The translations under genes were made by a program, and so were the position numbers. From the NCBI GenBank assembly GCA_964444665.1, contig CAYUIE010000003.1, positions 234,990-298,989 on the forward strand: DNA of 64,000 nt, read 5' to 3'. Position 1 is the first letter of the stretch, and every line of letters starts with the position of its first letter. The notes below the pieces were generated by a model. The model had not been told where the DNA came from. It worked only from the letters and a program-made list of their open reading frames with translations, and ran no database searches. Shown piece by piece: positions 49,120 to 64,000 of the stretch. The stretch comes from an uncultured Pirellulales bacterium (GTDB lineage Bacteria; Planctomycetota; Phycisphaerae; Sedimentisphaerales; CAYZTY01).

Positions 49120-49472
49120 GGGGGCGAATGGCTTCGACCGGACAGGTTGACGGATAAGTGGCATGTCCAGGACGCCGGTTGGCCTGGCTAATCATCCGGC
49201 ACAAAAATTAATTGGCAACTACCAGTTGCGTATGGCTGCGTAACTAACGCGGCCCGCCCTGTCGAGTCTTTCCTGCGGGCACGGCAAGGGCGCCAAACAG
49301 CAGGATAGCCCAGCCGGTTTTTTCGGGCCGGTGGGGTGAAAATTATCCGAAATAGCCGACTCAGGGGCCTGTCGTTCGGCATCTGATAAGGCGAAACTCA
49401 ATCGACCGACTAAACATGTAGAGGCTTATCCTGAAGTGTCACGGGACGGGGGTTCGAATCCCCCCGCCTCCA
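49120..49472 (+). ncRNA. ssrA: tmRNA; tag (A)GNYQLRMAA*
   Basis: 5' GGGGGCGAATGGCTTCGAC; tag ORF 49214-49243; 3' GGGGGTTCGAATCCCCCCGCCTCCA T-arm/acceptor. Confidence 0.96.
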
Positions 49473-49498
49473 TTCTCTTCGTTTCTCCAATTTTTTAC

Positions 49499-49565: not shown

Positions 49566-50657
49566 ATGGCATTTTTATTTGCACGGAAGCATCAGCGTGG
49601 CAAGACGTGGTATGTGGGTTACTACGTTGATGGCAAGCTCGTCCGCAAGAAGATTGGCCGAAGTAAAACACTGGCTGAGAAGGCCCGGGGGGACATTGAA
49701 GCCAGAATCGAGAGAGGTGAAGCAGGTCTTCTAAATAGAGACTACCCTATCCGTAGATTCTTCCAGGAGTATCTTGGACGGACAAAAACCAGGCACTCCG
49801 CATCCTACCACGACAGAAACAGAAGAGTCATAAAACAGTTCGAAAGATTTCTTGATGCCGAAAGACCATATCTGACCAGACTATCTCAACTAAAGCATGC
49901 CGTTATTGAAGCATACCAGCGGTTCAGATTGAATGAGACCGTCCCAAATAGCGGCAAACCCGTCAAAAAGAGAACCGTGAATATCGAGGTCAGCAGTCTT
50001 AAAACTTTCTTGAACAAAGCAGTAAAGTGGGATATGCTCTCCAGTAATCCCCTCGACAACGTGGAATACCTGAAAGAAAACGACAGCAAGAACATTCGAG
50101 CACTGACAGAAGAAGAAGTGCAAAAACTGCTTGAAGAAGCTAACGGCTGGTTCAGACCAGTACTTTTAACGGCACTTTACTCGGGCCTGAGAGAAGGGGA
50201 ATTAATAAATCTGGAGTGGGACGATGTTGACCTCAAACGTGGCGTGATACGAATACGCCGTAAGGTTGGCTGGGTACCCAAATCAAGCGGGAGAAGTATT
50301 CGTGAAAGGGACGTGGCCATCCCGAAGCAACTCGTGGAATTCCTGGAAAAGTACAAGAAACATCCGAGCTATGACGATGGCAAAGTGTTTCATAACAAGT
50401 TCGGTGATGAACTGAAGCCCGGGTTACGGAAGATCCTAATGAGGCTCACAAGAAGATGCGGCTTCCCCGAGGTTACGCAGTTCCATGCTCTAAGGCATAC
50501 ATACGCGACGCATCTGATTAAAGCGAGCAAGGATTTGCAGGTTGCAATGGACCAGTTAGGGCATGCTGATATTCGCACGACAATGCGGTACTCTGACATG
50601 ACCCTGGAGAGAAAGCGTAAAGCTGCAGAGAGGCTAAAATATGAAACAAGCAAGTGA
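49566..50657 (+). CDS. Tyrosine integrase (bacterial, arm-binding N-terminus)
   Basis: WYVGYYVDGKLVRK N-terminus; catalytic SGLREGE (R), FHALRHTYA (HxxR), LGHAD (H), TMRY (Y). Confidence 0.95.
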   Translation: MAFLFARKHQRGKTWYVGYYVDGKLVRKKIGRSKTLAEKARGDIEARIERGEAGLLNRDYPIRRFFQEYLGRTKTRHSASYHDRNRRVIKQFERFLDAERPYLTRLSQLKHAVIEAYQRFRLNETVPNSGKPVKKRTVNIEVSSLKTFLNKAVKWDMLSSNPLDNVEYLKENDSKNIRALTEEEVQKLLEEANGWFRPVLLTALYSGLREGELINLEWDDVDLKRGVIRIRRKVGWVPKSSGRSIRERDVAIPKQLVEFLEKYKKHPSYDDGKVFHNKFGDELKPGLRKILMRLTRRCGFPEVTQFHALRHTYATHLIKASKDLQVAMDQLGHADIRTTMRYSDMTLERKRKAAERLKYETSK

Positions 50658-50739: not shown

Positions 50740-52416
50740 ATGGCTAAAAACAAGTTAAACGATATTCCAAAAAAAGGTACACTTGAAATCAAAGTTGACA
50801 AGGCGGTGGTTAAGCACCTGAGCATCGGCCTATACCGCAACTATGCACTCGCCATAAAAGAATTGGTCTCTAACGCGTACGATGCAGGAGCAACAGAGGT
50901 GAAGATAAAACTGGATTTGAAGAGGAAGAGAATCGTAATTCGAGACAATGGGCGAGGCATGGACTACGATGACTTAGATAACGAATATCTCTGCATCGGC
51001 CTGCATAAAGCACCCTCCAGAAAGCCGGACGAATTGGGTCGAATGCGGATTGGCACTTTTGGGATTGGCTTTCTTGCACCTCTTCCATATTGCAAGCGAA
51101 TGACCGTAATTACTAAGAAACGGGGAAGCGACAGTGTCTTTCAGGCAACAATTAAGGCTACGAACTTCTTTAGCAAGGGCAATTGGGACATCAAAGACGA
51201 GAAAGTAGAATACGAAATCACAGACAGTGACCTTCCCCGAAAATCTGGTGAGACAATCGTGATTTTGGAGGAGATAGAGCCACAAATAGCGGAGGATTTA
51301 AATAGAAGCCGGAAGAAGGCAAAGGCCAAGATCGATCAGCTTGGTGGGTTCGATAAATTCAAATGGACTCTGTCTCAATACTGCCCGATCGAGTTTCCCC
51401 CTGAATGGAAGGAGTTGAGGAAATTCTTTGCTTATCCCGAAAGGATTCCGATGCGGCTGTGGCTTGATGGAAAAGAGCTTTTTAGAAATGTGCCTGAGGC
51501 GTGTGAGATTCTCGAAAAAGACGAGAAGGTCTTTGGGAATATTCACGTCAAATATGTGATATTGACACCTTACCACACTGTCAAGCCTGAGGAAGCAAGG
51601 GGTCTCCAGCTACGTCTCAGAGATGTGGCAATTGGATTCCCTCAGGATTTTGACGTCACAAAACTGGGAAGAGTCTTGGGAAAATTGAATCAGTTATGCG
51701 GAGAAGTCCACATTCTCAAAGGCCTAGACAATGCTCTAATGATTACAAGGGATACTTTTAACTATACCGAGGAAGTTTCCGAGCTGTACAAGTTCTTTAG
51801 AGAGAAGCTTACGAAGTGGAACAACTGGCTTGCAGACGAGGCAGATGCGACAAAGAAAGTGTATGAAGCCCTGCCCCCAGACAAAGCAGATGCAATAGCG
51901 GAGACTCTAAGGGAGGCAGATGTTGTTAAATTTCCAAAGGAGAGATTCCGCCTGCCTAAGTTTCCTATATCGAGCAGGCGCAAAGGTGAAATCTCCGCAC
52001 CTTCACAGCAACTAAAGGAGGCGCTCAAATCAAGACGAGGATTTTCTGTAGTATCTAGTAAGGCCAAGAGGACTAAAGACCAGCCTGCCATTGAGGTTGA
52101 TAAGAAGCGGAAATCCGTAACCGTTTACGACGAGCACCCTTCTTTTCTTGATTCTATTGAGGTAGAAAATAAGAAAATACTTGTGAGTTACGACAAATGG
52201 GAGGTCACTGGAACGCCCTATTCGATCTGCAAATACGACCGGAGACATAACAAGGCGGTGTTCAATACGGACCATCCACTCTTTAAAGCAAAAGTCAGTG
52301 ACAAAGTAGTGAAGCAGCTATCCTTGGGTATCTTGATATTGTTGGAAGGAACCAAGGAAAAAGAGCGAATTGTATCCAGATTCAATCGCATGCTTGAGGA
52401 TGTGTTCCAGGGGTAG
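50740..52416 (+). CDS. GHKL (Hsp90/MutL/MORC-like) ATPase
   Basis: KELVSNAYDA (N box), RDNGRGM (G1), RIGTFGIG (G2), followed by S5-like region. Confidence 0.88.
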   Translation: MAKNKLNDIPKKGTLEIKVDKAVVKHLSIGLYRNYALAIKELVSNAYDAGATEVKIKLDLKRKRIVIRDNGRGMDYDDLDNEYLCIGLHKAPSRKPDELGRMRIGTFGIGFLAPLPYCKRMTVITKKRGSDSVFQATIKATNFFSKGNWDIKDEKVEYEITDSDLPRKSGETIVILEEIEPQIAEDLNRSRKKAKAKIDQLGGFDKFKWTLSQYCPIEFPPEWKELRKFFAYPERIPMRLWLDGKELFRNVPEACEILEKDEKVFGNIHVKYVILTPYHTVKPEEARGLQLRLRDVAIGFPQDFDVTKLGRVLGKLNQLCGEVHILKGLDNALMITRDTFNYTEEVSELYKFFREKLTKWNNWLADEADATKKVYEALPPDKADAIAETLREADVVKFPKERFRLPKFPISSRRKGEISAPSQQLKEALKSRRGFSVVSSKAKRTKDQPAIEVDKKRKSVTVYDEHPSFLDSIEVENKKILVSYDKWEVTGTPYSICKYDRRHNKAVFNTDHPLFKAKVSDKVVKQLSLGILILLEGTKEKERIVSRFNRMLEDVFQG

Positions 52417-52422
52417 GGCTGA

Positions 52423-53151
52423 ATGGGTAACAGCAGTAGTTTGAAAGACGAGATGATCGAGAAATTATGGCTCCCAAAAGCTAAGGAGGCGTGGAGTATC
52501 ATTTGTCCCAGGCGGAAGAAACATGCTCGGATGTGTATGCTTACACTGTCGGATGGCCTTGACTTGGGCGAGGTGTCTAAGTTGGAGGAGGCGAATTTGA
52601 TTACGCGGGAAGACTCTGTGGGCTGGGTCTCTTCAATGAATAAGCGATGGAGGGTCGAAGCAGAAAATATTGGACTGGTCATTGACGGGCATGTATATGA
52701 TTCGTCATTTCTCACGCCATCTTGCCCACTGGTAAGCCATTTCCCTTTTGACATCCTCAATCTGGATTTTGGCTCCCAAGACGCCGACATGAATGAGGGA
52801 CGGACGGAAACCGAACTCATGGCGTTTGAAAAATTCATCGATCTTCAGGGACAAAATGGCAAACGCAAATTTCTCGTCATCTTCACTGTTCCAATCAACT
52901 CCTGCGATCTGGATTGCGCAAGGGTCGCGAGGGGATCTGACGCAACGAGAGTCAATGGCTGGGGCGGACTTAGATTGGACGAATACTCCGAGCATATTGC
53001 AGAACAAAGCGAAAAGACGGACTTCATCCAAGCTATTGCAGACAGTGTTATCCGGAAATATGGCTATAGTTGTAGTAACGGTTTAGTACCGCTATTATGT
53101 TCCGACTCTAACAGGATTCTGTTCTCCGTCGCAGGAGTCCTGGTGAGGTAG
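52423..53151 (+). CDS. Hypothetical protein, possibly degenerate SAM-methyltransferase-like fold
   Basis: Tightly packed in operon; MLTLSD and FPFDILNLDF segments; fold guess only. Confidence 0.55.
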   Translation: MGNSSSLKDEMIEKLWLPKAKEAWSIICPRRKKHARMCMLTLSDGLDLGEVSKLEEANLITREDSVGWVSSMNKRWRVEAENIGLVIDGHVYDSSFLTPSCPLVSHFPFDILNLDFGSQDADMNEGRTETELMAFEKFIDLQGQNGKRKFLVIFTVPINSCDLDCARVARGSDATRVNGWGGLRLDEYSEHIAEQSEKTDFIQAIADSVIRKYGYSCSNGLVPLLCSDSNRILFSVAGVLVR

Positions 53152-53154
53152 AAA

Positions 53155-53934
53155 ATGGCTAAGTTTAATATTGACAAATTGCCACCACTGGCGAGAAGCA
53201 TGTTTGAAAGCCAGTCGAAGTGGGCAGACAAAAACTGGAAAGATACCTTGAGATTGCGTGCGCGTGAAATCAATACTCTCTTGGATAACATAAGCATTTT
53301 CGATCTCTGGAAGAAAGTGCTTGGAGACGAATACGGTAAAATTGGGCAAGATTTGTTGCCTGAAATTTATATGGACGCCTATGTGTCAGTACATTTCGCT
53401 TGTATGGGTCTGTACAAGCAAAGCCATGTATGTTTGAGATCCGAACTAGAGAATGCTCTGCGTCTGGTCTACTTTGCAGTGCACCCTGTTGAGTATGGCT
53501 GGCGGCGGTCTGGGAAGGATTTCTTCAAAAAAAAGGATGTGTGGGCAGACGATTATCGCTATTTTCGGCAACTTGATGAGGTCCAGAAGTTTCAGCAGAT
53601 TTGTAAAAAGGATGGAAACAATGTTATTGTCTTTGACGCTGTAAGAAATCTTTATAGTAAACTATCTCAATATGTTCATACAGGGCCTACTACTTTTATA
53701 ACTACACCTAATCGCTTTGCTCCCAAATACAAAAAACCAGAATTCGGAAAATGGCTAAATGCCTTTAAGGAGACGCAGAAGTGTATAAATCTAATTCTTG
53801 TCTTGGGATTCACCGAAGATTTCAAGAAGTTGACCCTGCCTAAGAAGAAGGGAATCTTGAAAAAAACCGGTGACAAAAAAGTCAAGAAAGGTCTACGTAA
53901 ATCCATACCAGTAAAATTCGTGGGGGCTATCTGA
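53155..53934 (+). CDS. HEPN-like (DUF5677-type) helical protein
   Basis: LRSELE and LYSKLSQYVH motifs with helical character. Confidence 0.55.
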   Translation: MAKFNIDKLPPLARSMFESQSKWADKNWKDTLRLRAREINTLLDNISIFDLWKKVLGDEYGKIGQDLLPEIYMDAYVSVHFACMGLYKQSHVCLRSELENALRLVYFAVHPVEYGWRRSGKDFFKKKDVWADDYRYFRQLDEVQKFQQICKKDGNNVIVFDAVRNLYSKLSQYVHTGPTTFITTPNRFAPKYKKPEFGKWLNAFKETQKCINLILVLGFTEDFKKLTLPKKKGILKKTGDKKVKKGLRKSIPVKFVGAI

Positions 53935-53935
53935 T

Positions 53936-55009
53936 ATGATAATAAAGAAGGAAGATATCTTTAAGAAAGCTCCTTCGACAAGATATCAAGGTAGCAAGAG
54001 AAGGATTCTGCCTTGGCTTTACGATAATCTCAAAGACTTGGACTTCCACACAGTTTTTGATGGTTTTGGAGGAACTGGAAGTGTTAGTTATTTATTTAAG
54101 TTAATGGGTAAAAAAGTTACTTTCAATGATATATTAGCTTCGAATTATTTGGCTGGTGTAGCTTTGATTGAAAATGAGTCTGTCAAATTAGACCGAGATG
54201 ATGTTGATTTTATTTTACATGAAAATGGTTTTAATTATCCTAGTTTTATCGAGGACAATTTCAGGGGGACCTATTATTTGTCTCGGGAGAACAGATGGCT
54301 AGACGTTGTATCTCTTAACATCCGAATGCTTTCTCAAAAGTATAAAGGTGATATCTTAAGGAAAAAGCAGGCTTTAGCCAATCATATTTTATTTCAAGCT
54401 TGTTTATGTAAACGCCCCTTTAATCTTTTTCACAGAAAAAACTTATATTTGAGAACAGCACGAGTAAAAAGGAGTTTTGGAAATAAAAAAACATGGAACA
54501 CAAGTTTCCAAAGGTTGTTTCTAAAATTTAATGAAGAAATCTCTCAAAAGATTTTTTCTACTAAATTGAAGCATACCGCTCTTTGCGAAGATATTATGAA
54601 AGTCAGAAGGAAAAAGTTTGATCTTGTGTACTTAGATCCGCCGTATGCTAGGAAAAATGAAAGACATCCCAAAGATTATCATTCTTTATATCATTTTTTT
54701 GAAGGAATGCTTGATTATGATAATTGGGCGGAAAGAATTAATTGGAACACTAGAAATCATTGTTTAGTTCAGGAAAAGACAGGATGGGATAAGGATTCAA
54801 TCGAGGAGAATTTTGATAAATTATTTAGGAAATTTCAAAATTCGATTATAGTTGTTTCCTACGGTAGTCCAGGTGTCCCTTCCATTGATACAATCAGAAA
54901 GCTCCTGAATAAATACAAATCTGTGGTCTATATTAAACAAAGGCAGTATTGTTATAAATTGAACCGTAAAAATGGTGGTTTATACGAGGTTTTATTGATA
55001 GGCAAATAA
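53936..55009 (+). CDS. DNA adenine methyltransferase (Dam/D12 class)
   Basis: RYQGSK, FDGFGGTGSVS (motif I), FND, YLDPPY (motif IV). Confidence 0.92.
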   Translation: MIIKKEDIFKKAPSTRYQGSKRRILPWLYDNLKDLDFHTVFDGFGGTGSVSYLFKLMGKKVTFNDILASNYLAGVALIENESVKLDRDDVDFILHENGFNYPSFIEDNFRGTYYLSRENRWLDVVSLNIRMLSQKYKGDILRKKQALANHILFQACLCKRPFNLFHRKNLYLRTARVKRSFGNKKTWNTSFQRLFLKFNEEISQKIFSTKLKHTALCEDIMKVRRKKFDLVYLDPPYARKNERHPKDYHSLYHFFEGMLDYDNWAERINWNTRNHCLVQEKTGWDKDSIEENFDKLFRKFQNSIIVVSYGSPGVPSIDTIRKLLNKYKSVVYIKQRQYCYKLNRKNGGLYEVLLIGK

Positions 55010-55093: not shown

Positions 55094-55891
55094 TCACCAC
55101 TTCTCGCACATCCCCTGATATCCACAGTTTCCGCATAGATAGCCTTCGTTTGGATAATAGAAGCCGCCCCGTATTGCGTTTTCGACCTGTCCCGCAAGGC
55201 GGGAGAAACGATCGATGTCCGCCTGTGTCCTTTTCCCGTATAGCTGCTGGATCTTCGGCTGTTTGTTTCTTACCATTACGTCGAGACGGACACCTTTTTC
55301 TTCCTGGCCGTAGAGCGTGCGGAAGGCCAGCGAATAGGCAGTCAACTGAACATCCTTTTCTGCCGTGTTTTCCGGGAAGCTCCGTTTAGTCGTCTTGTGG
55401 TCGATGATGCACTGCTTATCGTCGATAAGGTCGATATATCCTTTAAGGGGAAGCTTGGTTCCAACCGTGTCAATGAGGAATTCCCGCTCGACTTCGACCG
55501 GCTGGACGCTTGGAGCAACCTGATCGAAGTATGCCTTCAGAAGATTCACGCCGTCATCTTTGAGCTTCCCAGGATTCTCTCCGTCTTTGAACTCCGTTTC
55601 CCCGACTTCACGTTCCCAGTACTCGCTGAAGAGTTCAGTAATATGAGAAACAATAATATCATGGCCGGTCTTTATTTTCTGCCTGTAGTTATCTTTAAGG
55701 GTATGATGAATCGTCCGGCCAAGAGTCAGGTCTCCTGTCGGCGGAGTCTTAATATCACATATGTATCGGAAAAAGTATGAAAGAGGGCAACGAATGTACA
55801 TCTTAAGCTGGGAGACGGACAGGTGGGGCCTTATCGTCGAGACGGTTCCCACCTGCCCATCTGAAGAGAATTCACTGTCGGCCTCTGTCAT
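55094..55891 (-). CDS. PD-(D/E)XK nuclease, RecB/AddB/Cas4-like with four-Cys cluster
   Basis: LSVSQLKMYIRCP, GRTIH, VERE, GYIDL, IIDHKT, QLTAY, C-terminal CGNCGYQGMC; start at MTEAD ATG 55891 after GGGGG. Confidence 0.88.
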   Translation of the reverse strand: MTEADSEFSSDGQVGTVSTIRPHLSVSQLKMYIRCPLSYFFRYICDIKTPPTGDLTLGRTIHHTLKDNYRQKIKTGHDIIVSHITELFSEYWEREVGETEFKDGENPGKLKDDGVNLLKAYFDQVAPSVQPVEVEREFLIDTVGTKLPLKGYIDLIDDKQCIIDHKTTKRSFPENTAEKDVQLTAYSLAFRTLYGQEEKGVRLDVMVRNKQPKIQQLYGKRTQADIDRFSRLAGQVENAIRGGFYYPNEGYLCGNCGYQGMCEKW

Positions 55892-56309
55892 TGTTCCCCC
55901 CGCCATTGTTATCCTGTGCCGGAGTCTCCGGTTCACCCTCGAAGACGTAGCGTTCAAAGAATCTCGCCGTCTCGATGGTCAGATCCTTCTTGGCATCAGG
56001 GTCAAGCTGAACGGGTGCAAGAATCTCGCTGGCGGATTTCAGGCACGACATCCTTGCGATCTGCCTGTCCTTGCCGTTTGGCCGGTATTGCGGCAGTTCG
56101 TTGCCGTTACCATTCACCGGCTCTATATCCGTCATGTTCTTGAAATTTCCGCTCTGCCTGAAGTCGTAGTCGATGGTTACGCCTTCCTGGAGCGTGTCAA
56201 AGTACTTGTCGTCCCAGACGCTGTATCTCTCTCCCCCGACCTGGACGGTCAGGTATTTCTGTCCCTTTCTGCTCTCGTTCTCCCAGACCTGCTCAATAGC
56301 CCCTCTCAT
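55872..56309 (-). CDS. Hypothetical, putative OB-fold ssDNA-binding protein of mobile elements
   Basis: Beta-rich N-terminus (KYLTVQVGGERYSVWD..FKNMTDI), RQIARMSCLKSA helix, acidic/Gly tail; GGAGGTG SD before ATG 56309. Confidence 0.55.
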   Translation of the reverse strand: MRGAIEQVWENESRKGQKYLTVQVGGERYSVWDDKYFDTLQEGVTIDYDFRQSGNFKNMTDIEPVNGNGNELPQYRPNGKDRQIARMSCLKSASEILAPVQLDPDAKKDLTIETARFFERYVFEGEPETPAQDNNGGGNNDRGRQ

Positions 56310-56328: not shown

Positions 56329-56592
56329 TCAAGGCAGCTCCTCAACGGTTGTCCCGTCTTCAAGAATTGATTTCGGGCAGAAGCGGCGACACTGCTTCAC
56401 CTCCTTGGAAGACGGAATCTTCTTCAACACGGCACACCAGATGCCTCTGCCGTTTTCAATTCCGCAGATGCAACCTTCACACTTTGCCGGGTATGGATCC
56501 TCCGATTTGTAGCTGCCTGCCATTACAGGAGGTTTCTCAGGTCGGCATTTTAGGGTATCGGAGAAAGGGTATGCGATTCGTGCTGTTGCCAT
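56329..56592 (-). CDS. Small Cys-rich hypothetical protein
   Basis: CEGCIC..WC..CRRFC; co-oriented between the recombinase and the SSB-like gene. Confidence 0.5.
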   Translation of the reverse strand: MATARIAYPFSDTLKCRPEKPPVMAGSYKSEDPYPAKCEGCICGIENGRGIWCAVLKKIPSSKEVKQCRRFCPKSILEDGTTVEELP

Positions 56593-56608: not shown

Positions 56609-57808
56609 TTAATCGTCGGTTTCAGGGTTTGTGAGTTCCCCGATCTTCCGTGCGAGTATGTCCCGGAAGTCCTGGTCCTGAATTAGCCTGTCCATAATTT
56701 GGTCGGCTTTGTTCCGCTCAAGGTTCTTCTTGATGATTTCACTAGCCGTTTTCTGATCTAACACTGTGCCACAACGGCTGCAAAATTTGTTCGTTGATGC
56801 GTTTTCTACCTTGCACCGTGGACAAGCTTTTGGCCTTAACTTGCCCTCCGGTCTCCGGCTCGTGTCAGTAGCAATACCGTAGGTCTTTAGCAGAGCGTTG
56901 TCAACGTCACGCCCCGAAAGGTGAACGTATATGGATGGCATGTTTGAGCCCTGGGTCCATCCGAAGACTTCATTCATCTGTGCTTCGGTGAGATGGTTGG
57001 CCAGGTGTGTCGCCCTGCTGTGGCGAAATGAATGCGGGTTGATTCTCTTCTTAATTCCAGCTCGTTTCGCTGCTGCATCCAGTATGTCGCGTATCCTCTT
57101 ATAACTCAGACGGGACGCTCTGTAGTCTTTTGAAACCCACAGGTATTCCTGTGGTTGTGACTTCTTAGGGTGAATGTTAAGCCAGTCGGTCATATATGGA
57201 GCTGATGTGATTATTAGTAATCTTCTTGTTCCTGTCTTTCCTGATACGATGATTCGAAAACCATGAATGTGTGGAAGAACATGCTTTATTCTCATCGATG
57301 CAATTTCCCCTATTCTGCACCCGGTCTCGTAAAGAATCGATACGAGGGCCCTGTCCCTGGGATCATGGCATGCCTCAATTAGCCTGGAAATGTCCTCTTC
57401 CGTAAGAAGTTCATCAGGAAGCCTGTTGTTGCAGTTACGGCGGCTGAGCTTAATCCACGCCGTTTCCTGCGGATCTTCATTAACTCCCCGGAGCCAGCGA
57501 TAGAATTTCTTTATCGTAAGCTTGAGGTCCTGTTTTGTCCATTCGGAATAACCGGACTGCTGAATGGTTCTTACGAGCGTCTCAATGTCAGCTTTAGTGG
57601 CATCAGCGAAGTCCTTTTTAAAGAGAGAAGCGAGGCACTTGAGATGGCCGACATATTTCTCCACGCGTGGAATGCTCAGTCCCTCGGAGAAACAGTAATC
57701 GGAAAAATCCAGAATGGCACGTTTGTTTTTCGGAGAGAAGTTAGACTTCTTGATTAGCTCTATTCTTCTCTCCAGCTTACGTTCATAGTTATGGAAGCTA
57801 TCATCCAT
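56609..57808 (-). CDS. Tyrosine recombinase of archaeal type with C-terminal zinc ribbon
   Basis: YSEWTKQDLKLTIKKFYRWL, ETGCRIGE (R), GKTG (K), PHSFRHSRAT (HxxR), FGW, YVHLSGRDVD (Y), CPRC..N..KFCSRCG. Confidence 0.92.
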   Translation of the reverse strand: MDDSFHNYERKLERRIELIKKSNFSPKNKRAILDFSDYCFSEGLSIPRVEKYVGHLKCLASLFKKDFADATKADIETLVRTIQQSGYSEWTKQDLKLTIKKFYRWLRGVNEDPQETAWIKLSRRNCNNRLPDELLTEEDISRLIEACHDPRDRALVSILYETGCRIGEIASMRIKHVLPHIHGFRIIVSGKTGTRRLLIITSAPYMTDWLNIHPKKSQPQEYLWVSKDYRASRLSYKRIRDILDAAAKRAGIKKRINPHSFRHSRATHLANHLTEAQMNEVFGWTQGSNMPSIYVHLSGRDVDNALLKTYGIATDTSRRPEGKLRPKACPRCKVENASTNKFCSRCGTVLDQKTASEIIKKNLERNKADQIMDRLIQDQDFRDILARKIGELTNPETDD

Positions 57809-58153
57809 GAAGATTCACCCACGCCAGGCTTTTAAGACCTGACGTGGGCACCGTGCTTTTCACCCCACGCCGAGGATGGGTGTTCAACGAAAAGTACAAC
57901 GCCCACAGAATTCAGACCTTAAAGCCTATGAGAAATAGTTAACTGAAGAGATATTTAAGCCTTGCGCTCGTAAGAATATTGGTTAGAAATGCAGGATAGA
58001 ACAAACTTTACCCATTCCGGAGTTCTGATCGCCCGGTCATTCTCACTTTCCATGCTGAAATATAGGTGAATGCCTTTTTTCATCCTTCTTTCCACATGTT
58101 GCGCACCATGCCAGTAAAGCGCAAATGGGTGCACCGAAATCGCGTCAAATTCC

Positions 58154-58702
58154 CTATTCGGCTACCATCGTTGCCGATAGCTTCTTTCGCACCCATAACG
58201 AGAACCACATCGAGAAGACACATAAGGCAAATGCCGGAGGGAGTACGACGAGTGTGTTAGCTACAGGGTTATCACATAGGAGGAAGCCCTGTACAGGCTC
58301 AGGAGAGCGTGCTCTACTGACAAGATACTCACCACAGAATGCGTTGCTTACTGGACTGTAAGGATTTGAATAGAAAATCCGTATGACACTGTAGGAAGGG
58401 CTCTGTGAATGGAAGAGATTCAGTCCTACCGGATTGATTACCAATGTCACGATGGCAACGGAGGTAACAATGATTAGTAATGCCGCGACAAGGTAATCCT
58501 TGAATGTGGCACGAAGCAGAAAGGCAACCCCAAATGGAATGGCAATGCAGTTTATGGCAGGAAGGATCATGCTGAACTGAAGGTTTATAGCTCCGAGAAA
58601 GTCCAGAAGAAGGACGAACCACAGCAAACCCGCAAGCAATGAGAATACCCACCAGAGTAGAAAGACTTTGCCCACAGTTCGGACGTTATTGATATCCTTC
58701 AT
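58154..58702 (-). CDS. Hypothetical membrane protein (about 4 TM)
   Basis: Hydrophobic segments; divergent from ORF 58758. Confidence 0.6.
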   Translation of the reverse strand: MKDINNVRTVGKVFLLWWVFSLLAGLLWFVLLLDFLGAINLQFSMILPAINCIAIPFGVAFLLRATFKDYLVAALLIIVTSVAIVTLVINPVGLNLFHSQSPSYSVIRIFYSNPYSPVSNAFCGEYLVSRARSPEPVQGFLLCDNPVANTLVVLPPAFALCVFSMWFSLWVRKKLSATMVAE

Positions 58703-58726
58703 GTTTTAGTATATAATATTGACGAA

Positions 58727-58741
58727 TTATTAAGCTATCGG
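58727..58741 (-). promoter_or_regulatory. Archaeal BRE+TATA-like motif (possibly bidirectional TATA)
   Basis: Minus strand CCGATAG-CTTAATAA starting 39 nt before ATG 58702; plus strand GACGAA-TTATTAAG with TATA at -31..-24 of ATG 58758. Confidence 0.5.
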
Positions 58742-58757
58742 CGAAAGGGACAGGAAG

Positions 58758-60281
58758 ATGAAGACTGGTTTGTTTCTGGCGCTATGCGTGTTTCTTACAC
58801 TCTTATCTATCACATCAGCTTCCTCTGGCAAGGGATTCCCTCCAAAATGGATCGAAGGAGATGCATATGTGACTCAGGGAGAAGTGATTGACGGAAAACC
58901 AGTAAGTGGGAGAGGTGTCAAGGTTTCTATAACACGTTCTAAGGGAGCCGAATCCAGTGGACCATATCACTACACTGTAAGAATTCAGCCAGGCGATCCA
59001 TGGGAACATGGTACAGCAAGCGGAAGGACAGTATGGATTGAGGGACATGGTATCAGCCAGATCATCATCTCTCTGCCGGTCGATACGGCGGAAATTACAA
59101 ATACCAGAGTCTTGATAATCGGAAAGACCAGAGAACAAACAATGAGGGAGCTACAGGCAATTATGACAGAGGGGTTCAAGGGGTATGCCGAGGAACAAAT
59201 AAGGCAAGCAGCGGACAAGGCCAAGGATATTGTGTTTGGAATTCCAACCTCCTACATTGAGTTGGAAGAACCGTTTGAACTAAGTCCTCGAGATGGTCTC
59301 ATTATACTGAAGTGTGATTTCGAAGGAGCCAATGTCAGTCAGCGTTTTGACAAAATTGAAGAAGTTGTCGTTTCCTTCGATCTAACCTATAAGAAACCAA
59401 GCAAGCATTATATAGTAATAACTCCAGACATCAGAGCTACAGGCAACCTAGTTGATACATCATTACCTCTGAGGGGGAGCATAGGTGGTTACTACCTCAT
59501 TGAATACAGACAGGAGTTCATTCTAACACATAGTGGTGACTTTGAGAGTCGTCAAAACTCGGAAGGTCACCCGTATTTTCCGCTGACTGTGGGCAACAAA
59601 TGGACATACGATACGCGTGTGCAAATGGTGGTTCCGGGGTTCATGGAGAACCCCCCTAAAGAGGGTTCAACTACCTTTGCGGTCGCAGATAAGAAAAGGG
59701 TCAGCGACAAAGACTGCGTAGTAATTAGAGAGGGTATGAACGAAAGCTACTACTATATTGAAGACGGGTGTGTGATGTTAGCTGGTTCGCGCGGATGGGC
59801 CAGCATTGAGGAGTTTCTGTCACAGCAGGGTCTAAAAATCAAGTTCCCCACGAAGTATTTGGAGAATTCACTAACAACCGGTAAGTCATGGATAAGGGAA
59901 CATATTATTGGCTCTCATCCTGATGCTAGTTTAGTATCACGAGTTTTGTGTGTCGAAACTGTTACTGTCCCTGCAGGAACATTCCAAGACGCCATCAAGA
60001 TTAAAAATCGTCTTTCTGTGGGTAGTATGGGAGAGGTAGTTGTTATTGAATGGTTGGTAAAAGGTGTTGGAAGAGTAAAGGGCTCTATGTTAAGCCGCTT
60101 GGGGGGAAATAATAGTGGTGCTATGCCCGTGCAAGTTAAAATGGAATACGAACTTAGCTCATATGATATTGCTATGGGCGATCACAAAAGGAATAGTGAA
60201 GAGAAAGATAAACAGCAACACAAGGAAAAAAAGATTGGATGCAGTTTCACCGATGAACTTTCACCCGGCGGAGTAGGTTAG
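58758..60281 (+). CDS. Secreted hypothetical protein, C-terminal DUF3108/TapB-like beta domain
   Basis: Signal peptide MKTGLFLALCVFLTLLSITSA; YFPLTVGNKWTY ... ETVTVPAGTFQDAIKI pattern. Confidence 0.65.
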   Translation: MKTGLFLALCVFLTLLSITSASSGKGFPPKWIEGDAYVTQGEVIDGKPVSGRGVKVSITRSKGAESSGPYHYTVRIQPGDPWEHGTASGRTVWIEGHGISQIIISLPVDTAEITNTRVLIIGKTREQTMRELQAIMTEGFKGYAEEQIRQAADKAKDIVFGIPTSYIELEEPFELSPRDGLIILKCDFEGANVSQRFDKIEEVVVSFDLTYKKPSKHYIVITPDIRATGNLVDTSLPLRGSIGGYYLIEYRQEFILTHSGDFESRQNSEGHPYFPLTVGNKWTYDTRVQMVVPGFMENPPKEGSTTFAVADKKRVSDKDCVVIREGMNESYYYIEDGCVMLAGSRGWASIEEFLSQQGLKIKFPTKYLENSLTTGKSWIREHIIGSHPDASLVSRVLCVETVTVPAGTFQDAIKIKNRLSVGSMGEVVVIEWLVKGVGRVKGSMLSRLGGNNSGAMPVQVKMEYELSSYDIAMGDHKRNSEEKDKQQHKEKKIGCSFTDELSPGGVG

Positions 60282-60332
60282 GCGTTTGTCGCTAGTTGGA
60301 TCGAAAGCCACAGGTCTTGGGTACGAAGTGGA

Positions 60333-60701
60333 TTGTGTGGCACAAAAGATGAAAAGCCTTGTTGGCTTCTGGGATATCTCGAAAGAGGTCCTAAACTTGA
60401 GTTCCATCTTACTTTTTGCGGTAGCGGGGGGTCTCCAAAAGTCCATCTACAACCAAGAATATGGTCTATAACGTTTGAGGGAAAGAGATCGTACTGGACA
60501 GAAGTTTGGGATAGCCGTTCGAGACGACGCTATACAGTCGTTGTGGATGTTGATTTCTGTGGTCGTGACAGATTCGAAGTTAGAAGTGGGGAATACTGGG
60601 AGACCTTCAGGGTTGTTGGCGACAAGAATTTGGAAGTAGTAACTGAGAGCAAGACTCACATTAAGGCTCGATGGCATCTGCATATCGAACGGATGTATTA
60701 A
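60333..60701 (+). CDS. Possible hypothetical protein or degraded gene
   Basis: Fills the gap between convergent genes; beta-rich C-terminal half; no family recognised. Confidence 0.3.
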   Translation: MCGTKDEKPCWLLGYLERGPKLEFHLTFCGSGGSPKVHLQPRIWSITFEGKRSYWTEVWDSRSRRRYTVVVDVDFCGRDRFEVRSGEYWETFRVVGDKNLEVVTESKTHIKARWHLHIERMY

Positions 60702-60735
60702 CTTGGGACTTAGCATTTCAGAGACGTTGATAAGG

Positions 60736-61776
60736 TTAGCTTGAAACATTGAATTCTCTCACCTTTCCTTGTATCGCAGCCCGTTTCGCTCGTATTAAAC
60801 CTGTCTCAACAAGTTTGTTGCAGTAGTCTGAATAGGTGCGGATGGCTATAGGCTTAATTGCCTTCGATGTGCATGTCCTGAGATACAGCCGCCATAGGTC
60901 ACCCGACAGAATTCCCGGATTTCCTGCGATTAGCTCAAACAACAGCTTATGGTGGTCGGTCAGCTTGTGAAGGATGAACGCCTTTTTCAGGGTCTTCGAG
61001 TTGTTCCACGCCTGCTTAACATGGGAAGTCATAATTGGACCCTGGCCGTCTCTTTCAGCGATATAAACGGCATTTTTGAGGGTCTGTATGGCCACCCTCG
61101 CATCACCGGTTGCAAGCTGTGCTATGAGACGCAAAAGACCCTCGTCGCATGTTCCTGGTGTAAGAGCATATTGCGCCCGATGATTGAGAATGCTAAACAA
61201 CTCATCGCAAGAGTAATCCTTAAAGAATACCTGAGCAGGATTGAGCCTGGATTTCACTCTTTCCTCAAGGCCGAAATAAACGTGCTCGGAATTGCAAGCA
61301 CAGATTAGACCAACTGTCGGAAGGTCCGAAAGGTTATATAGAATTGAATGCCTTTCCTTCGGAGGTGGCTGATTTATTTCATCGAGAATGATGACCAAAC
61401 GCTCCCTGGAAATATGCCTTTTGAGTCTCTCCAGTTTGAATGAGGTGCTGAGCTTATCGGCGCCCAGCATACGCAACTCAATCGCAATACGCTCGAGCAC
61501 CGAGAAGAAGGTCGGATTCTCCCAGCAGTTAACGTATATGCCTTTGATCCCTGCTTCCTGATGAAGCTTTTTTAAGATAAGTCGGGCTATGACGGTCTTG
61601 CCAGTGCCGGGTTTTCCGTGAAGCCAAGTGTGTATGGGCTTTCTGCCTTCGGTAATCGGCCGAAGGCACAGTGCAATCTCCTTCAAGTGAGATTCACGCT
61701 TGAGAGTTTCCTCTGGAATATGGCTTTCGCTGAAGAAATCTGGGTCCAGCAGAATTGGTTGTCCTTCAGGAGGCAT
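60736..61776 (-). CDS. cdc6: Orc1/Cdc6-family replication initiator (archaeal type)
   Basis: FSESHIPE..LKRESH.KEIA.CL.P N-terminus; Walker A GKPGTGKT; YVNC; Walker B IILDEI; Arg finger RVKSRL; F..YS.DEL..IL..RA; sensor II GDARVAI; C-terminal winged helix. Confidence 0.9.
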   Translation of the reverse strand: MPPEGQPILLDPDFFSESHIPEETLKRESHLKEIALCLRPITEGRKPIHTWLHGKPGTGKTVIARLILKKLHQEAGIKGIYVNCWENPTFFSVLERIAIELRMLGADKLSTSFKLERLKRHISRERLVIILDEINQPPPKERHSILYNLSDLPTVGLICACNSEHVYFGLEERVKSRLNPAQVFFKDYSCDELFSILNHRAQYALTPGTCDEGLLRLIAQLATGDARVAIQTLKNAVYIAERDGQGPIMTSHVKQAWNNSKTLKKAFILHKLTDHHKLLFELIAGNPGILSGDLWRLYLRTCTSKAIKPIAIRTYSDYCNKLVETGLIRAKRAAIQGKVREFNVSS

Positions 61777-61799: not shown

Positions 61800-61814
61800 A
61801 ATATATCTTTCGGT
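61800..61814 (-). promoter_or_regulatory. Archaeal BRE+TATA-like motif upstream of orc1/cdc6
   Basis: ACCGAAAG-ATATATT; CCGAAAG begins 37 nt before ATG 61776; no SD. Confidence 0.6.
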
Positions 61815-61903: not shown

Positions 61904-62236
61904 CTACCGTGCGCGATATTTAAATATCCTCTCGTACTCTTTGTGTGAACACCAATCGAGAATTATGGCTATGATTTCTATGCCCTCCCGGCCCAGGGAA
62001 TACAGCAACCTCCATGCATTTGGAAGGTCATATTTGTACAGGTTATTTATGCTATACAGTTTTATATATCTCTTGGGTATCAATCGCTTTGGTATCGCAG
62101 TACCACAATCAGGTTTGAGCTTGATGTCCTCTATGGCCCGCAGAATGAATCTGTAAAGCTCTCTGAGTTCTTCGTTGGTTTTCAGTTTAAGAAAGTTCTT
62201 CTCTGCCTTTCGGTCAACGAAGTATACCTCCACCAT
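61904..62236 (-). CDS. RelE/ParE-superfamily toxin-like protein, archaeal style
   Basis: NLYKYDLPNAWRLLYSL...IILDWCSHKEYERIF; coupled to the upstream wHTH gene. Confidence 0.7.
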   Translation of the reverse strand: MVEVYFVDRKAEKNFLKLKTNEELRELYRFILRAIEDIKLKPDCGTAIPKRLIPKRYIKLYSINNLYKYDLPNAWRLLYSLGREGIEIIAIILDWCSHKEYERIFKYRAR

Positions 62237-62535
62237 TAAACCACCTTTAGATCAGGTCTCGATTTATACTCTCTGACCAGAAGAGGATTATATACCCAGA
62301 CTATCTTTCCCTCTCTGTCAGACATAACGAAGCCTTTCGCGTAGAAGTATTCGATTATCAGTTTAAGAGTGGGGTAGATGACTGTTCGTGGCAATGCTTT
62401 ATAGAGCTCGGTTATAGTACACGCTCCGAGCTGCTTTAGCGTCCCCTCTACCATCAGAACAGTGTCAAGTGTCGGAGAATGGGCATTTCTCCTCTTTTTT
62501 AATTCCATCGAACTGCATCTATCAAGCTTACTCAT
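62236..62535 (-). CDS. Small winged-helix protein, putative antitoxin/regulator, archaeal style
   Basis: HSPTLDTVLMVE..LK..G..T.TELYKALP...YPTL..I.EY...G......GKIVW.YNP; stop overlaps the RelE-like start. Confidence 0.65.
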   Translation of the reverse strand: MSKLDRCSSMELKKRRNAHSPTLDTVLMVEGTLKQLGACTITELYKALPRTVIYPTLKLIIEYFYAKGFVMSDREGKIVWVYNPLLVREYKSRPDLKVV

Positions 62536-62556: not shown

Positions 62557-62575
62557 TACTTAAATATCTTTCGGT
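62557..62575 (-). promoter_or_regulatory. Archaeal BRE+TATA-like promoter
   Basis: ACCGAAAG-ATATTTAAGTA; TTTAAGTA at -29..-22 from ATG 62535; no SD. Confidence 0.65.
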
Positions 62576-63002
62576 GAAGCGAGGATGATAAATCGCCCAA
62601 AATAAATGGACTAGGACTGGAAACCATCAGGTTAAGGTAGTAGCTCTACTTTGGGAAGGCCAGATGGTTCAGAGTTCTTACGTAAAACGAACTTTTCGCT
62701 ATTCACAAGCCTCTTGGATCAGAAACTGAGAACATTCAAAGAAAAGCGGCCAACTATGAGCATCGGATCGACAGTCCGAATCGGGGCTTTATAAGTGTTT
62801 GTGAATAAATGGCTTGTGATGCTGACCGAAAGATAGCCGTAATGTAACTGAGGCCCAGACAAGCATAGTTGTCGCGCGCTTTGTTGCGTATCTCAGTGGC
62901 TGGCTTAATCCATTCTCGTTTATGCTCAAACGCGGGTTGGTTAGGCTGGTACTTTCAGGTTGGATTAAAGGCCTTCAACCATTTGTACTGACGGCATATA
63001 TT

Positions 63003-63205
63003 TTAACTGCCGTTTGGTAATTTGCTCAGGGTCCAATACGAATCAACTATCCTGATTGCCTCCGCGAACCCTTTATAATCAACAGGCTTTACTACATAAC
63101 CGGCAACGCTGAGCTTGAAGCTTTCGTCTATGTGCAACTCCTCATTGGAGGTGGTCAGCACCACAATAGGAATCTTTTTCAAGACATCATCAACCTTTAA
63201 AATTC
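63003..63205 (-). pseudogene. C-terminal half of a single-domain CheY/Rcp1-like response regulator, cut by IS66
   Basis: Manual translation ILKVDDVLKKIPIVVLTTSNEELHIDESFKLSVAGYVVKPVDYKGFAEAIRIVDSYWTLSKLPNGS*; homology ends at the IS terminus. Confidence 0.85.
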
Positions 63206-64000
63206 GTAAGCGTTCAGGCGGTTTTGGCTAAACAGCCTACAGTTTTTATTAACGATGGAGTTGGAATACCATCCAAATGACAACGACACGCATGATGCAA
63301 ATATTCAATAACACTTCGTCCTTGCAGGCGGCAAGTGGCGCAGGCGGTGAGGATCCGTTCCACATATCGTGCCCCGCGTTCGCTCTGCGTGCCGAAGCTG
63401 CCCTTACGCCACAAGACGGCCTGCCGCACCATCCGCTCGGCCAGATTATTGGTCGGCTCTACCCGCGCATCGTGCACGAATGTCCACAGATAATGCCGCT
63501 GGTTGAAAATGCGGCGGCATTGGCCCGACAAAGGCGAGCCACTATCGGCGCCTCGGGCCAGCAGCCTTTCCACCCGCTGCATCAGCGGCTCCATTCGACG
63601 TCGAAAAGTTTGCCAGCTAAGCGTTCCATCCCGCATCCGTTTGCGCAGGTGCAGGATTTGTTTGGACAAGGCAAACAATTTGCTCCCGATCCGGCCTATG
63701 GTCCCTTTCATCTCGCTGAAGGCTTGAAAATCTCGTTTCAGATGAGCCCAGCACAGTTGCCGCAGGCCGCCAAAGCAATTGTAGCCGCTCCAGCGGTCGC
63801 AATGCAGAATGCCGGCAAAGGTTCCCAGCAGTTTTTGAGCCGCTGTCTGCCCGCGTCCGGCCTGGATCAGAAAGACGGCCGCCGTGGTGCAACACAACGT
63901 CCAGAGCCAGCCTTTCTGCCGATTGCCGCGAGGCCAACCGGTTTCGTCAGCGTGGGCGATCGACTGCTGTTGCACATGTTCCAGCAGTTCTTGATGCGGG
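63206..64000 (-). mobile_element. IS66-family element, right end; continues beyond the window
   Basis: Terminal GTAAGCGTTCAG at 63206 (IS66 ends begin GTAA); visibly GC-richer DNA. Confidence 0.85.
63214..63975 (-). CDS. IS66 transposase TnpC, C-terminal part (5' truncated by the window)
   Basis: HADETGW, HCDRWSGY, QLCWAHLKRDF, EPTNNLAER, RKGSFGTQS. Confidence 0.93.
   Translation of the reverse strand: MQQQSIAHADETGWPRGNRQKGWLWTLCCTTAAVFLIQAGRGQTAAQKLLGTFAGILHCDRWSGYNCFGGLRQLCWAHLKRDFQAFSEMKGTIGRIGSKLFALSKQILHLRKRMRDGTLSWQTFRRRMEPLMQRVERLLARGADSGSPLSGQCRRIFNQRHYLWTFVHDARVEPTNNLAERMVRQAVLWRKGSFGTQSERGARYVERILTACATCRLQGRSVIEYLHHACRCHLDGIPTPSLIKTVGCLAKTA

What the first reader, a model, noticed from the sequence alone, without database searches (positions are those of the whole stretch)
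56609..57808. Second, archaeal-style tyrosine recombinase: nested elements
Seen: two unrelated integrases in one island. The second has an N-terminal 'S.KNKRAILDF...SEWT..D....IKKFYRWL' region, a 'YVHLSGRDVD' catalytic segment and a C-terminal CxxC..CxxC ribbon, an architecture I associate with archaeal genomes. It has a GGTGA SD. Inference: the archaeal module is its own integrative element that inserted into or beside a bacterial ssrA island.
Basis: partly seen in the sequence, partly recalled or inferred. Interest (0 to 1): 0.62.

Follow-up and report, generated by a model that had tools for sequence, protein, structure and literature searches.

The report
Archaeal-type zinc-ribbon integrase in bacterial island
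A bacterial genomic island inserted at the tmRNA gene carries, besides its ordinary bacterial integrase, an intact second integrase from a large, mostly archaeal and biochemically untested family with a zinc-ribbon tail, showing that this recombinase and its Orc1-type companion genes also live in bacteria.

Summary
IntB belongs to a large family (>3000 proteins; at least 590 species genomes) with an invariant R-E-K-H-R-W-Y set and an invariant C-terminal CxxC...CxxC ribbon. About 80% of the best 80 named loci are archaeal. Its closest viral relatives are all archaeal viruses (Archaeoglobi pleolipoviruses, a methanogen tailed virus, Halorubrum BJ1). It is not XerA, and not SSV-, pNOB8- or SNJ2-type.

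In archaea the gene sits 50-180 nt after tRNA genes, as classical integrases do. In this bacterium it lies mid-way in a conserved backbone (wHTH-RelE-Orc1-IntB-Cys-rich-p163-Cas4-like nuclease).

That backbone lies inside an ssrA island bounded by tmRNA 3'-end repeats: attL at 49445-49472, attR on contig C1. The island's canonical integrase is IntA (49566-50657), an ssrA-specific bacterial family. IntA occurs at ssrA without the backbone elsewhere, and the backbone occurs without IntA elsewhere, so the two modules are separable.

"Nested or composite elements" is therefore supported. No att of IntB's own was found, so an IntB-driven insertion is not shown. This is a new variant of a known kind, of moderate interest.

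The parts
56609..57808 (-). IntB: 399-aa tyrosine recombinase of the zinc-ribbon (BJ1-like) family. Tyr294 codon at 56927-56929; CxxC...CxxC at 56771-56824.
   Evidence: dN/dS 0.11 against the G070 ortholog
57809..58023 (-). Upstream region of intB: GGTGA SD-like motif at 57815-57819, and a 94-nt stretch (57931-58024) that is 94.7% identical to the C27 paralog's upstream region and carries a CTTAAATATCT promoter-like motif.
56329..56592 (-). 87-aa Cys-rich protein, a conserved backbone partner.
   Evidence: 58-79% identical in L005, L006, L012, L013, L014
55872..56363 (-). 163-aa protein (p163), a conserved backbone partner with no family hit.
55094..55957 (-). PD-(D/E)XK, Cas4-like exonuclease, a backbone partner.
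58024..60740 (.). Window-specific 2.7-kb insertion between orc1 and intB (182-aa membrane protein, 507-aa secreted protein), absent from G070 and C27.
60736..61776 (-). Orc1/Cdc6-family protein, usually directly upstream of IntB in the bacterial loci.
   Evidence: (TIGR02928: 187 bits, cutoff 181)
61904..62535 (-). wHTH (62236-62535) and RelE-like (61904-62236) pair. The block shared with G070 ends at 62586.
49120..49475 (+). tmRNA gene (ssrA). The attL core is the 28 nt at 49445-49472, GACGGGGGTTCGAATCCCCCCGCCTCCA, repeated perfectly at G000 C1:368544-368571 (attR).
49566..50657 (+). IntA: bacterial ssrA-island integrase in the canonical position next to attL.
50740..55009 (+). Cargo cassette (GHKL ATPase, two unknown proteins, adenine methylase) between IntA and the backbone.
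63003..64000 (-). Response-regulator fragment (63003-63182) and IS66-family transposase (63214 onward). Contig C3 ends 1.6 kb beyond the window.

Best explanation
IntB is an intact, selectively maintained tyrosine recombinase of a large, mostly archaeal family. The family is defined by an R-E-K-H-R-W-Y active site, an invariant four-Cys zinc ribbon just after the catalytic Tyr, and a helical tail. Its archaeal and archaeal-virus members look like integrases of proviruses and integrative elements that insert at tRNA 3' ends.

In this bacterium IntB is the recombinase of a conserved Orc1-type backbone (wHTH-RelE-Orc1-IntB-Cys-rich-p163-Cas4-like nuclease) that carries variable defence cargo. That backbone is embedded in a tmRNA (ssrA) island. 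The island's ends are 28-30-nt repeats of the tmRNA 3' end, and its integration is most simply explained by the unrelated bacterial integrase IntA next to attL.

So the island is a composite of two separable mobile modules.

Shown: family identity, conservation of the catalytic set and ribbon, island borders, and separability of the two modules.

Inferred: that IntB still moves the backbone, or resolves its replicated circles. Its own recombination sites were not found.
For: Intact ORF with the catalytic set and ribbon kept family-wide; dN/dS 0.11. The family forms a clade (SH-aLRT 98) apart from XerA, XerC/D and IntA, with 64 archaeal and 13 bacterial rows. The best virus hits are archaeal viruses only.

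18 archaeal loci have a tRNA ending 50-180 nt upstream on the same strand. A perfect 20-nt copy of the tRNA-Leu 3' end lies 33 kb downstream in L066's genome. In the vir524 virus record a tRNA-Leu is annotated beside the integrase.

The backbone order is conserved in L005, L006, L012, L013 and L014.

attL: homology with same-genus G001 stops at 49476. attR: a perfect 28-mer on C1 with arms matching G070's attR arms. G070 has the same layout with perfect 30-nt repeats 50.7 and 59.3 kb away.

IntA homologs lie 93-103 nt after the tmRNA gene in L156, L157 and L158, and L156 and L157 show no IntB or Orc1 within 10 kb. The backbone on C27 sits in a tRNA-Arg(TCT) island array without IntA.
Against: No direct or inverted repeat brackets the backbone. 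No attR was found within 10 kb for any tRNA-adjacent archaeal locus.

The IntA-to-wHTH block is conserved as a unit in G070, and both integrases are equally absent from the host's relatives. That fits a single composite element as well as a nested one.

L159 pairs an IntA homolog with an Orc1-like gene and has no IntB. So Orc1 is not tied to IntB.

The C3-C1 gap is not closed.
Confidence: 0.6

Rival explanations
1. There is one composite element. IntA does all integration and excision at ssrA. IntB is not an integrase here but a Cre/Xer-like resolvase that resolves multimers of the excised, Orc1-replicated circle, or shuffles cargo cassettes at the variable slots beside it.
For: IntB is usually directly downstream of Orc1 in the bacterial loci. 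No att of its own was found. The IntA-to-wHTH block is conserved as a unit in G070. Variable slots flank intB: the 58024-60740 insertion here, DUF4238 in L005 and L014, and 2.8 kb in L013. Wang et al. 2018 placed BJ1-like enzymes near Cre (PMC5861418). The closest solved structures are Xer resolvases.
Against: Archaeal members sit at tRNA genes and at the edges of provirus records, like true integrases. No dif- or lox-like inverted-repeat site was identified. The backbone exists without IntA elsewhere. The Cre grouping was not reproduced in the 2021 review (PMC8371274).
Confidence: 0.28
2. IntB is a functionless relic of an old element captured in the island.
For: It has an internal position without att repeats. 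One relative, L015 in a complete Phycisphaerales chromosome, has two in-frame TAG stops.
Against: The 399-codon ORF is intact, all catalytic and zinc-ribbon residues are kept, dN/dS is 0.11 against the 94%-identical G070 ortholog, and the upstream region is conserved.
Confidence: 0.07
3. It is an ordinary bacterial phage integrase, or a housekeeping XerA/XerCD-type dimer resolvase.
For: It gives Pfam Phage_integrase and phrog_1/216 hits. Its best NCBIfam hit is XerA_Arch.
Against: It scores 118.9 bits against the XerA cutoff of 220. True XerA coexists with it in the same archaeal genomes. It is absent from 58 of 60 genomes of the host's order. Bacteriophage integrases match only the catalytic core at about 25%. 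It is outside the Xer/IntA group in the tree.
Confidence: 0.03
4. It is an assembly chimera or archaeal contamination in a bacterial bin.
For: The family is archaea-dominated. The labels of some MAG contigs in the family are doubtful.
Against: The gene lies on a 300-kb contig between a bacterial tmRNA gene and bacterial-type island ends. The same arrangement occurs next to the tmRNA gene in an independent assembly, G070. A paralog lies beside a chromosomal GH43 gene on C27.
Confidence: 0.02

Closest known systems
Integrase of Halorubrum virus BJ1 ('BJ1-like' archaeal virus integrases; Wang et al. 2018, PMC5861418; Badel et al. 2021, PMC8371274)
   Same: The same catalytic pattern with Trp at position III (BJ1 is R-E-K-T-R-W-Y; IntB is R-E-K-H-R-W-Y) and the same four-Cys C-terminal ribbon. 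tblastn gives E=1e-25 over 75% of IntB. BJ1 lies inside the family clade, on a long branch.
   Different: Only 26.5% identity. BJ1 has Thr at the His-II position. BJ1 is on a haloarchaeal tailed virus and is reported to target a protein-coding gene, and its recombination has not been tested. IntB is bacterial, internal to an island, and next to Orc1.
Integrases of Archaeoglobi pleolipoviruses GacPV1 and ThalV2 and of Methanomicrobiales virus vir524 (GenBank BK065156, BK065158, BK063669)
   Same: These are the best matches in 50,697 virus records: 34-37% identity and up to 93% coverage. They have the identical REKHRWY set and four Cys. The pleolipovirus pair falls in the sister group of the 19-row clade that holds IntB.
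   Different: They are viral, with the integrase as the first gene of a provirus record or beside a tRNA copy. IntB sits in a non-viral Orc1 and defence backbone in a bacterium.
Archaeal XerA (P. abyssi 4a8e, T. acidophilum 5hxy)
   Same: The closest solved structures by sequence profile (E=5.6e-26) and by fold, with the same two-domain core.
   Different: IntB is about 110 residues longer, with an N-terminal extension, a zinc ribbon and a helical tail. It scores below the XerA family cutoff. It coexists with true XerA. It is patchy and element-borne.
pNOB8-type (type II) archaeal integrases
   Same: Topology only: an intact int gene with the tRNA att site just upstream, as in the archaeal members of this family (PMC5861418).
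   Different: pNOB8-type enzymes have Tyr at the His-II position (R...Y-x-x-R...Y). This family has His (85 of 87).
Bacterial tRNA/tmRNA-targeting genomic-island integrases (IntA here)
   Same: Both are tyrosine recombinases in the same island.
   Different: IntA has a SAM-like N-terminal domain, scores 222 bits on phrog_1, lies 93 nt from the tmRNA gene, and belongs to an all-bacterial family. IntB shares only the box I/II motifs with it.

Membership tests
Tyrosine recombinase superfamily (Pfam PF00589) | Catalytic-domain match above the gathering score | tested here: met
   102.2 bits against 27.1, residues 135-298
Tyrosine recombinase superfamily (Pfam PF00589) | Catalytic R, K, H-x-x-R, H/W and Y residues present | tested here: met
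   R165, K191, H259, R262, W284, Y294, plus E168. 85-87 of 87 family members keep them.
Zinc-ribbon / BJ1-like archaeal integrase family (no curated model exists) | R-E-K-(H/T)-R-W-Y set plus a CxxC...CxxC ribbon after the Tyr helix | tested here: met
   The window, BJ1, GacPV1, ThalV2 and vir524 all show it.
Zinc-ribbon / BJ1-like archaeal integrase family (no curated model exists) | Groups with those integrases in a phylogeny, apart from Xer and phage-type integrases | tested here: met
   Family clade SH-aLRT 98, with XerA, XerCD and IntA outside. BJ1 lies on a long branch.
Zinc-ribbon / BJ1-like archaeal integrase family (no curated model exists) | Acts as an integrase: int at the element edge beside a tRNA att, with an attR repeat | tested here: inconclusive
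   18 archaeal loci have a tRNA directly upstream. There is one plausible 20-nt attR at 33 kb. No attR lies within 10 kb. For the window's copy no att was found.
XerA (NCBIfam NF040815) | Score at or above the curated cutoff (220 bits) | tested here: not met
   118.9 bits
XerA (NCBIfam NF040815) | The housekeeping dimer resolvase of its genome | tested here: not met
   Separate, better-scoring XerA genes (up to 263 bits) are found in 4 of the 7 archaeal genomes searched. Methanoperedens holds several further family copies beside its XerA. IntB is absent from 58 of 60 relatives of the host.
SSV-type ('suicidal') integrases | Lys at the His-II position; the int gene is split by integration | tested here: not met
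   H259. ORFs are intact beside tRNAs. For contrast, a true split integrase was found in L071's Prim-Pol element.
pNOB8-type integrases | Tyr at the His-II position | tested here: not met
   His in 85 of 87 members; signature taken from PMC5861418.
SNJ2-type integrases | Gly/Ala at Glu/Asp-I and Ala/Val at His/Trp-III | tested here: not met
   E168 and W284 are invariant; signature taken from PMC5861418.
SNJ2-type integrases | Dependence on small accessory proteins Orf2 and Orf3 | not testable with these tools
   Needs a genetic or biochemical assay.
ssrA-specific bacterial island integrases (IntA family) | Gene directly downstream of the tmRNA 3' end; SAM-like N-terminal domain | tested here: not met
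   IntB is 7 kb from attL. It shares only the box motifs with IntA. It is IntA homologs that sit 93-103 nt after the tmRNA gene.

The most novel reading that the evidence does not exclude
IntB-type elements are one cross-domain family of Orc1-encoding integrative elements that move between archaea and bacteria. The zinc-ribbon recombinase works in both domains, and the ribbon plus helical tail is a previously unrecognised targeting or assembly domain. In bacteria these elements would ride inside classical tRNA/tmRNA islands and seed defence islands.
Probability: 0.3. Interest if true: 0.75.

Novelty: new variant of a known kind. Interest (0 to 1): 0.52.

Why it matters
Tyrosine integrases are the main markers used to find and classify mobile elements. 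This family is large (over 3000 clusters) and spans most archaeal phyla and several bacterial phyla. It includes integrases of archaeal viruses. Yet the zinc ribbon is not mentioned in the two reviews and the classification paper I could read, and no member has been tested biochemically.

Two points follow from finding it intact in a bacterial chromosome, tied to an Orc1-type protein and defence cargo, inside an island served by a different bacterial integrase:
- It gives a concrete, clonable case for asking how archaeal-type mobile-element machinery functions in bacteria.
- It shows how composite defence islands are built from separable integrase modules.

Tried and rejected
1. I looked for a repeat of the tmRNA or tRNA-Ser 3' end inside the window and found none. 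attR turned out to lie on another contig.

2. I searched for exact repeats of 15 nt or more bracketing intB in the window and in about 80 loci, and found only chance-level hits. A fine search of all intergenic regions of the island returned only promoter-like motifs.

3. I looked for attR within 10 kb of the 19 tRNA-linked archaeal loci (18 with the tRNA within 180 nt, plus L079), both exactly and with blastn-short. I found none.

4. The 43-nt tRNA 5' repeat in L071 first looked like an IntB att. I rejected that, because the 8.4-kb element between the repeats has its own split, SSV-like integrase.

5. The tRNA-Arg(TCT) junction arm motifs (GACTGACGCA...TGACGCA) are absent from the window's island.

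6. I tried to use G001's gene downstream of ssrA to locate the far chromosomal flank. No ortholog was found.

7. Contig-end overlaps did not join C3 to C1 or C27 to C34.

8. Tandem islands behind the extra tmRNA repeats carry no IntA- or IntB-type integrase, so they did not discriminate.

9. The 82-86% identity of the nuclease and p163 to an 'Aenigmatarchaeota' contig cannot be taken as recent inter-domain transfer. That contig's ThiC has only bacterial named relatives.

Full report
**Observation.** The ORF at 56609-57808 on the minus strand is intact and encodes 399 aa.
- A GGTGA lies 6 nt upstream of the ATG.
- Pfam gives a clear Phage_integrase match (102 bits, residues 135-298). The zinc-ribbon models match residues 329-351 only weakly, below their cutoffs.
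- A second integrase, IntA (49566-50657, plus strand), starts 93 nt after a tmRNA gene at 49120-49475.
- The two proteins share only the box I and box II motifs (E=0.001). They are very distant members of one superfamily.

**What the protein is.** A search of 5.8 billion proteins found more than 3000 relatives of about 395-400 aa. Named members come from both archaea and bacteria.

An alignment of 32 members, and later of 87, shows conserved catalytic and ribbon residues:
- R165, E168, K191, R262, W284 and Y294 are kept in all 87.
- H259 is kept in 85 of 87.
- The four ribbon cysteines are kept in 86 of 87.
- The ribbon is followed by a conserved helical tail.

The AlphaFold model has mean pLDDT 79. 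It shows a helical N-terminal domain, the catalytic domain, a low-confidence Tyr/ribbon segment, and two long C-terminal helices. The closest solved structures are archaeal XerA (4a8e, 5hxy), both by profile (E=5.6e-26) and by fold. IntI, XerH and Cre follow.

*It is not XerA.*
- It scores 118.9 bits against a cutoff of 220.
- Separate, better-scoring XerA genes, 162-263 bits against 100-130 bits for the IntB type, are found in four of the seven archaeal genomes searched.
- Methanoperedens holds several further family copies beside its XerA.

*Catalytic signatures from Wang et al. 2018 (PMC5861418) exclude three other archaeal families:*
- SSV-type has Lys at the His-II position.
- pNOB8-type has Tyr there.
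- SNJ2-type has Gly/Ala at Glu-I and Ala/Val at position III.

The pattern matches the untested BJ1 integrase (R-E-K-T-R-W-Y), which also has the four Cys.

**Who carries it.** A scan of one genome per prokaryotic species found at least 590 relatives. Of the best 80, about 66 are archaeal and 14 bacterial.
- The archaeal ones include Aenigmatarchaeota, Nanoarchaeota, Bathyarchaeia, Thermoplasmata, Methanoperedens, Micrarchaeota, Woesearchaeota, Nitrososphaeria, Hodarchaeaceae and Geoglobus.
- The bacterial ones include Phycisphaerae, Sedimentisphaerales, other Planctomycetota, Elusimicrobia, Zixibacteria, Ignavibacteria, Thermotogaceae, Bacillota and Verrucomicrobiota.

Among 50,697 phage and virus records, the best matches are all archaeal viruses:
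- Geoglobus and Archaeoglobus pleolipoviruses, at 36-37% identity and about 90% coverage
- a Methanomicrobiales tailed virus
- Halorubrum BJ1, Humcor1 and HRTV-27

Bacteriophage integrases match only the catalytic core, at about 25%.

A 98-sequence tree (IQ-TREE quick search, SH-aLRT support) gives the following:
- The family forms a clade with support 98, apart from XerA, XerC/D and IntA.
- Supported branches force at least 7 changes of domain label.
- The window's protein falls in a 7-member clade (support 99). Its partners there are G070 (a Phycisphaerae MAG, 94% identical), two metagenome or 'bacterium' sequences, the paralog on contig C27, a Sedimentisphaerales sequence, and one 'Aenigmatarchaeota' sequence.

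The immediate lineage is nevertheless already bacterial.

Caveat: MAG labels are not all reliable. The 'Aenigmatarchaeota' contig's ThiC has only bacterial named relatives. Some 'bacterial' members on short contigs sit next to archaeal sequences in the tree.

**What the family does in archaea.** In 18 of 60 scanned loci, all of them archaeal, a tRNA gene ends 50-180 nt upstream of the integrase on the same strand. The tRNAs include Thr, Glu, Ser, Arg, Pro, Gly, Asn and Leu. The provirus records start with this integrase, or carry a tRNA copy beside it. That is the classical layout of a tRNA-targeting integrase with an intact gene.

I found no attR within 10 kb. However, the related proviruses are 13-38 kb long. 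In one Methanoperedens genome a perfect 20-nt copy of the tRNA-Leu 3' end lies 33.2 kb downstream on the same strand.

A 43-nt tRNA 5' repeat in L071 belongs to a different element, a Prim-Pol element with its own split SSV-like integrase.

**Context in the window.** IntB sits in a backbone that recurs in the bacterial loci: (wHTH-RelE)-Orc1-IntB-[variable slot]-87-aa Cys-rich protein-p163-Cas4-like PD-(D/E)XK nuclease. Opposite-strand defence cargo follows. The own genome has a second copy on contig C27, with IntB 55% and Orc1 91% identical. The family is absent from 58 of 60 other genomes of the host's order.

**Island borders.**
- Homology with the same-genus genome G001 stops exactly at the tmRNA 3' end, position 49476.
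- Contig C3 ends 1.6 kb past the window, in an IS66 element.
- A perfect 28-nt copy of the tmRNA 3' end lies at C1:368544-368571, 465 nt from that contig's end. Two degenerate copies lie further in.
- In G070 the tmRNA is 80% identical. The same island starts at the tmRNA 3' end, and perfect 30-nt repeats lie 50.7 and 59.3 kb away.
- The 170-390 nt inside attR are conserved between C1 and both G070 sites.

So the backbone lies inside a classical ssrA island. The block from IntA to wHTH (13.4 kb) is shared with G070 at uneven identity: IntA 73% nt, GHKL-to-IntB 86%, orc1 67%, relE-wHTH 78%. The window also has a private 2.7-kb insertion at 58024-60740.

**Which integrase serves ssrA, and are the modules separable?** IntA belongs to a small family whose named members are all bacterial. 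Homologs at 61-72% identity lie 93-103 nt after tmRNA genes with three different tag peptides (L156, L157, L158). The islands behind two of them, one Druantia-like and one with a type I R-M system, have no IntB or Orc1 within 10 kb.

Conversely, the C27 backbone lies beside a chromosomal GH43 gene, behind a truncated tRNA-Arg(TCT). It is part of an array of four partial copies, all broken at tRNA position 43. The intact tRNA and a different integrase are on C34. The backbone's orientation relative to the target RNA is opposite in the two islands.

The two modules are therefore separable, and the island is composite. Against a simple 'nested insertion by IntB':
- No repeat brackets the backbone.
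- The composite is conserved as a unit in G070.
- IntA is as patchy as IntB among the host's relatives.
- L159 pairs an IntA homolog with an Orc1-like gene and has no IntB.

**Mechanism.** IntB is very likely active. The ORF is intact, the catalytic and ribbon residues are all present, dN/dS is 0.11 against the G070 ortholog, and the upstream region is conserved.

My best reading, at about 0.6, is that IntB is the recombinase of an Orc1-type element that now resides inside an IntA-served ssrA island. Whether it still integrates and excises that sub-element is inferred, not shown.

The main rival, at about 0.28, is that it serves as a Cre/Xer-like resolvase or cassette-exchange enzyme for a single composite element.

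**Novelty.** The SNJ2 paper, the 2021 review of archaeal tyrosine recombinases, and the Smyshlyaev classification do not mention a zinc-ribbon family. They treat BJ1's integrase as untested. The superfamily and the idea of composite islands are well known. The family definition, its breadth, and its bacterial, Orc1-linked lineage appear undescribed. I rate it a new variant of a known kind, with interest about 0.5.

**Limits.**
- The tree used a quick search with SH-aLRT support only.
- MAG taxonomy is taken from submitters' titles.
- The host's taxonomy was not independently checked. Earlier notes call it a planctomycete, and the nearest island-bearing genome is labelled Phycisphaerae.
- The island's right half is not assembled.

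Noticed in passing
G000 contigs C27:2783-2825, C25:~783, C26:~13145, C8:~147290, C34:5765-5838: One intact tRNA-Arg(TCT) gene plus four partial copies, all broken exactly after position 43 (the end of the anticodon stem). Three share about 320 nt of flanking arms with GACTGACGCA-N-TGACGCA motifs. This looks like a tandem array of islands at one tRNA, fragmented by the assembly. An IntA-like integrase (26% identity) lies beside the intact tRNA on C34.
   Followed up: partly
L071 1372-9868 (Bathyarchaeia contig): An 8.4-kb Prim-Pol/PriCT element is bounded by perfect 43-nt repeats of the tRNA-Thr 5' part. Joining its ends gives a continuous 383-aa tyrosine-recombinase-like ORF across the att site, that is, an SSV-style split ('suicidal') integrase. 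It lies on the other side of the same tRNA from the IntB-type gene.
   Followed up: partly
window 58024-60740: A 2.7-kb insertion between orc1 and intB is private to this genome. It encodes a 182-aa multi-pass membrane protein (58154-58702, -) and a 507-aa secreted protein with a weak DUF3108-like match (58758-60281, +). G070 has 127 nt at this position.
   Followed up: no
G070 contig C56:13295-72593 (L012, L154, L155): The ssrA island is 50.7 kb, with a second 8.5-kb island in tandem behind another 30-nt repeat. Cargo beyond the wHTH gene includes an AAA_15 ATPase, a radical-SAM enzyme, an adenosine deaminase, a NUDIX-deoxynucleoside kinase fusion and a PRTase-CE protein. A type II R-M-like pair sits between IntA and the GHKL cassette.
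   Followed up: partly
L159 (24.7-kb metagenome contig): An IntA homolog (75% identity) lies with an Orc1-like gene (42%) and many small ORFs. The 18 kb read shows no tmRNA and no IntB. It may be an unintegrated form of a related element.
   Followed up: no
L015 / G068:C1:1729520-1730218 (complete Phycisphaerales chromosome): The IntB-family gene there has two in-frame TAG stops and is probably a pseudogene.
   Followed up: no
L014 / L008 ('Aenigmatarchaeota' contig JAFGSV010000024.1): p163 and the nuclease are 86% and 82% identical to the window's. The contig's ThiC, however, has only bacterial named relatives at 58-61%. Either the contig is mis-binned, or a DPANN archaeon has acquired bacterial genes.
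   Followed up: partly
window 63003-63182 and 63214-64000: A 59-aa C-terminal fragment of a CheY-like receiver lies directly beside an IS66-family transposase. The IS probably truncated the gene, and it also ends the contig.
   Followed up: no
window 57949-57959, 61803-61814, 62559-62575: The short motif CTTAAATATCT(TTCGGT) recurs upstream of intB (in the opposite orientation), orc1 and the wHTH gene. This agrees with the promoter-like signals noted by an earlier follow-up.
   Followed up: partly
G063 (Methanoperedens genome of L062): The genome has several (about six to eight) IntB-family copies with 386-418-aa frames, plus a separate true XerA. These elements seem to multiply in that lineage.
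   Followed up: no
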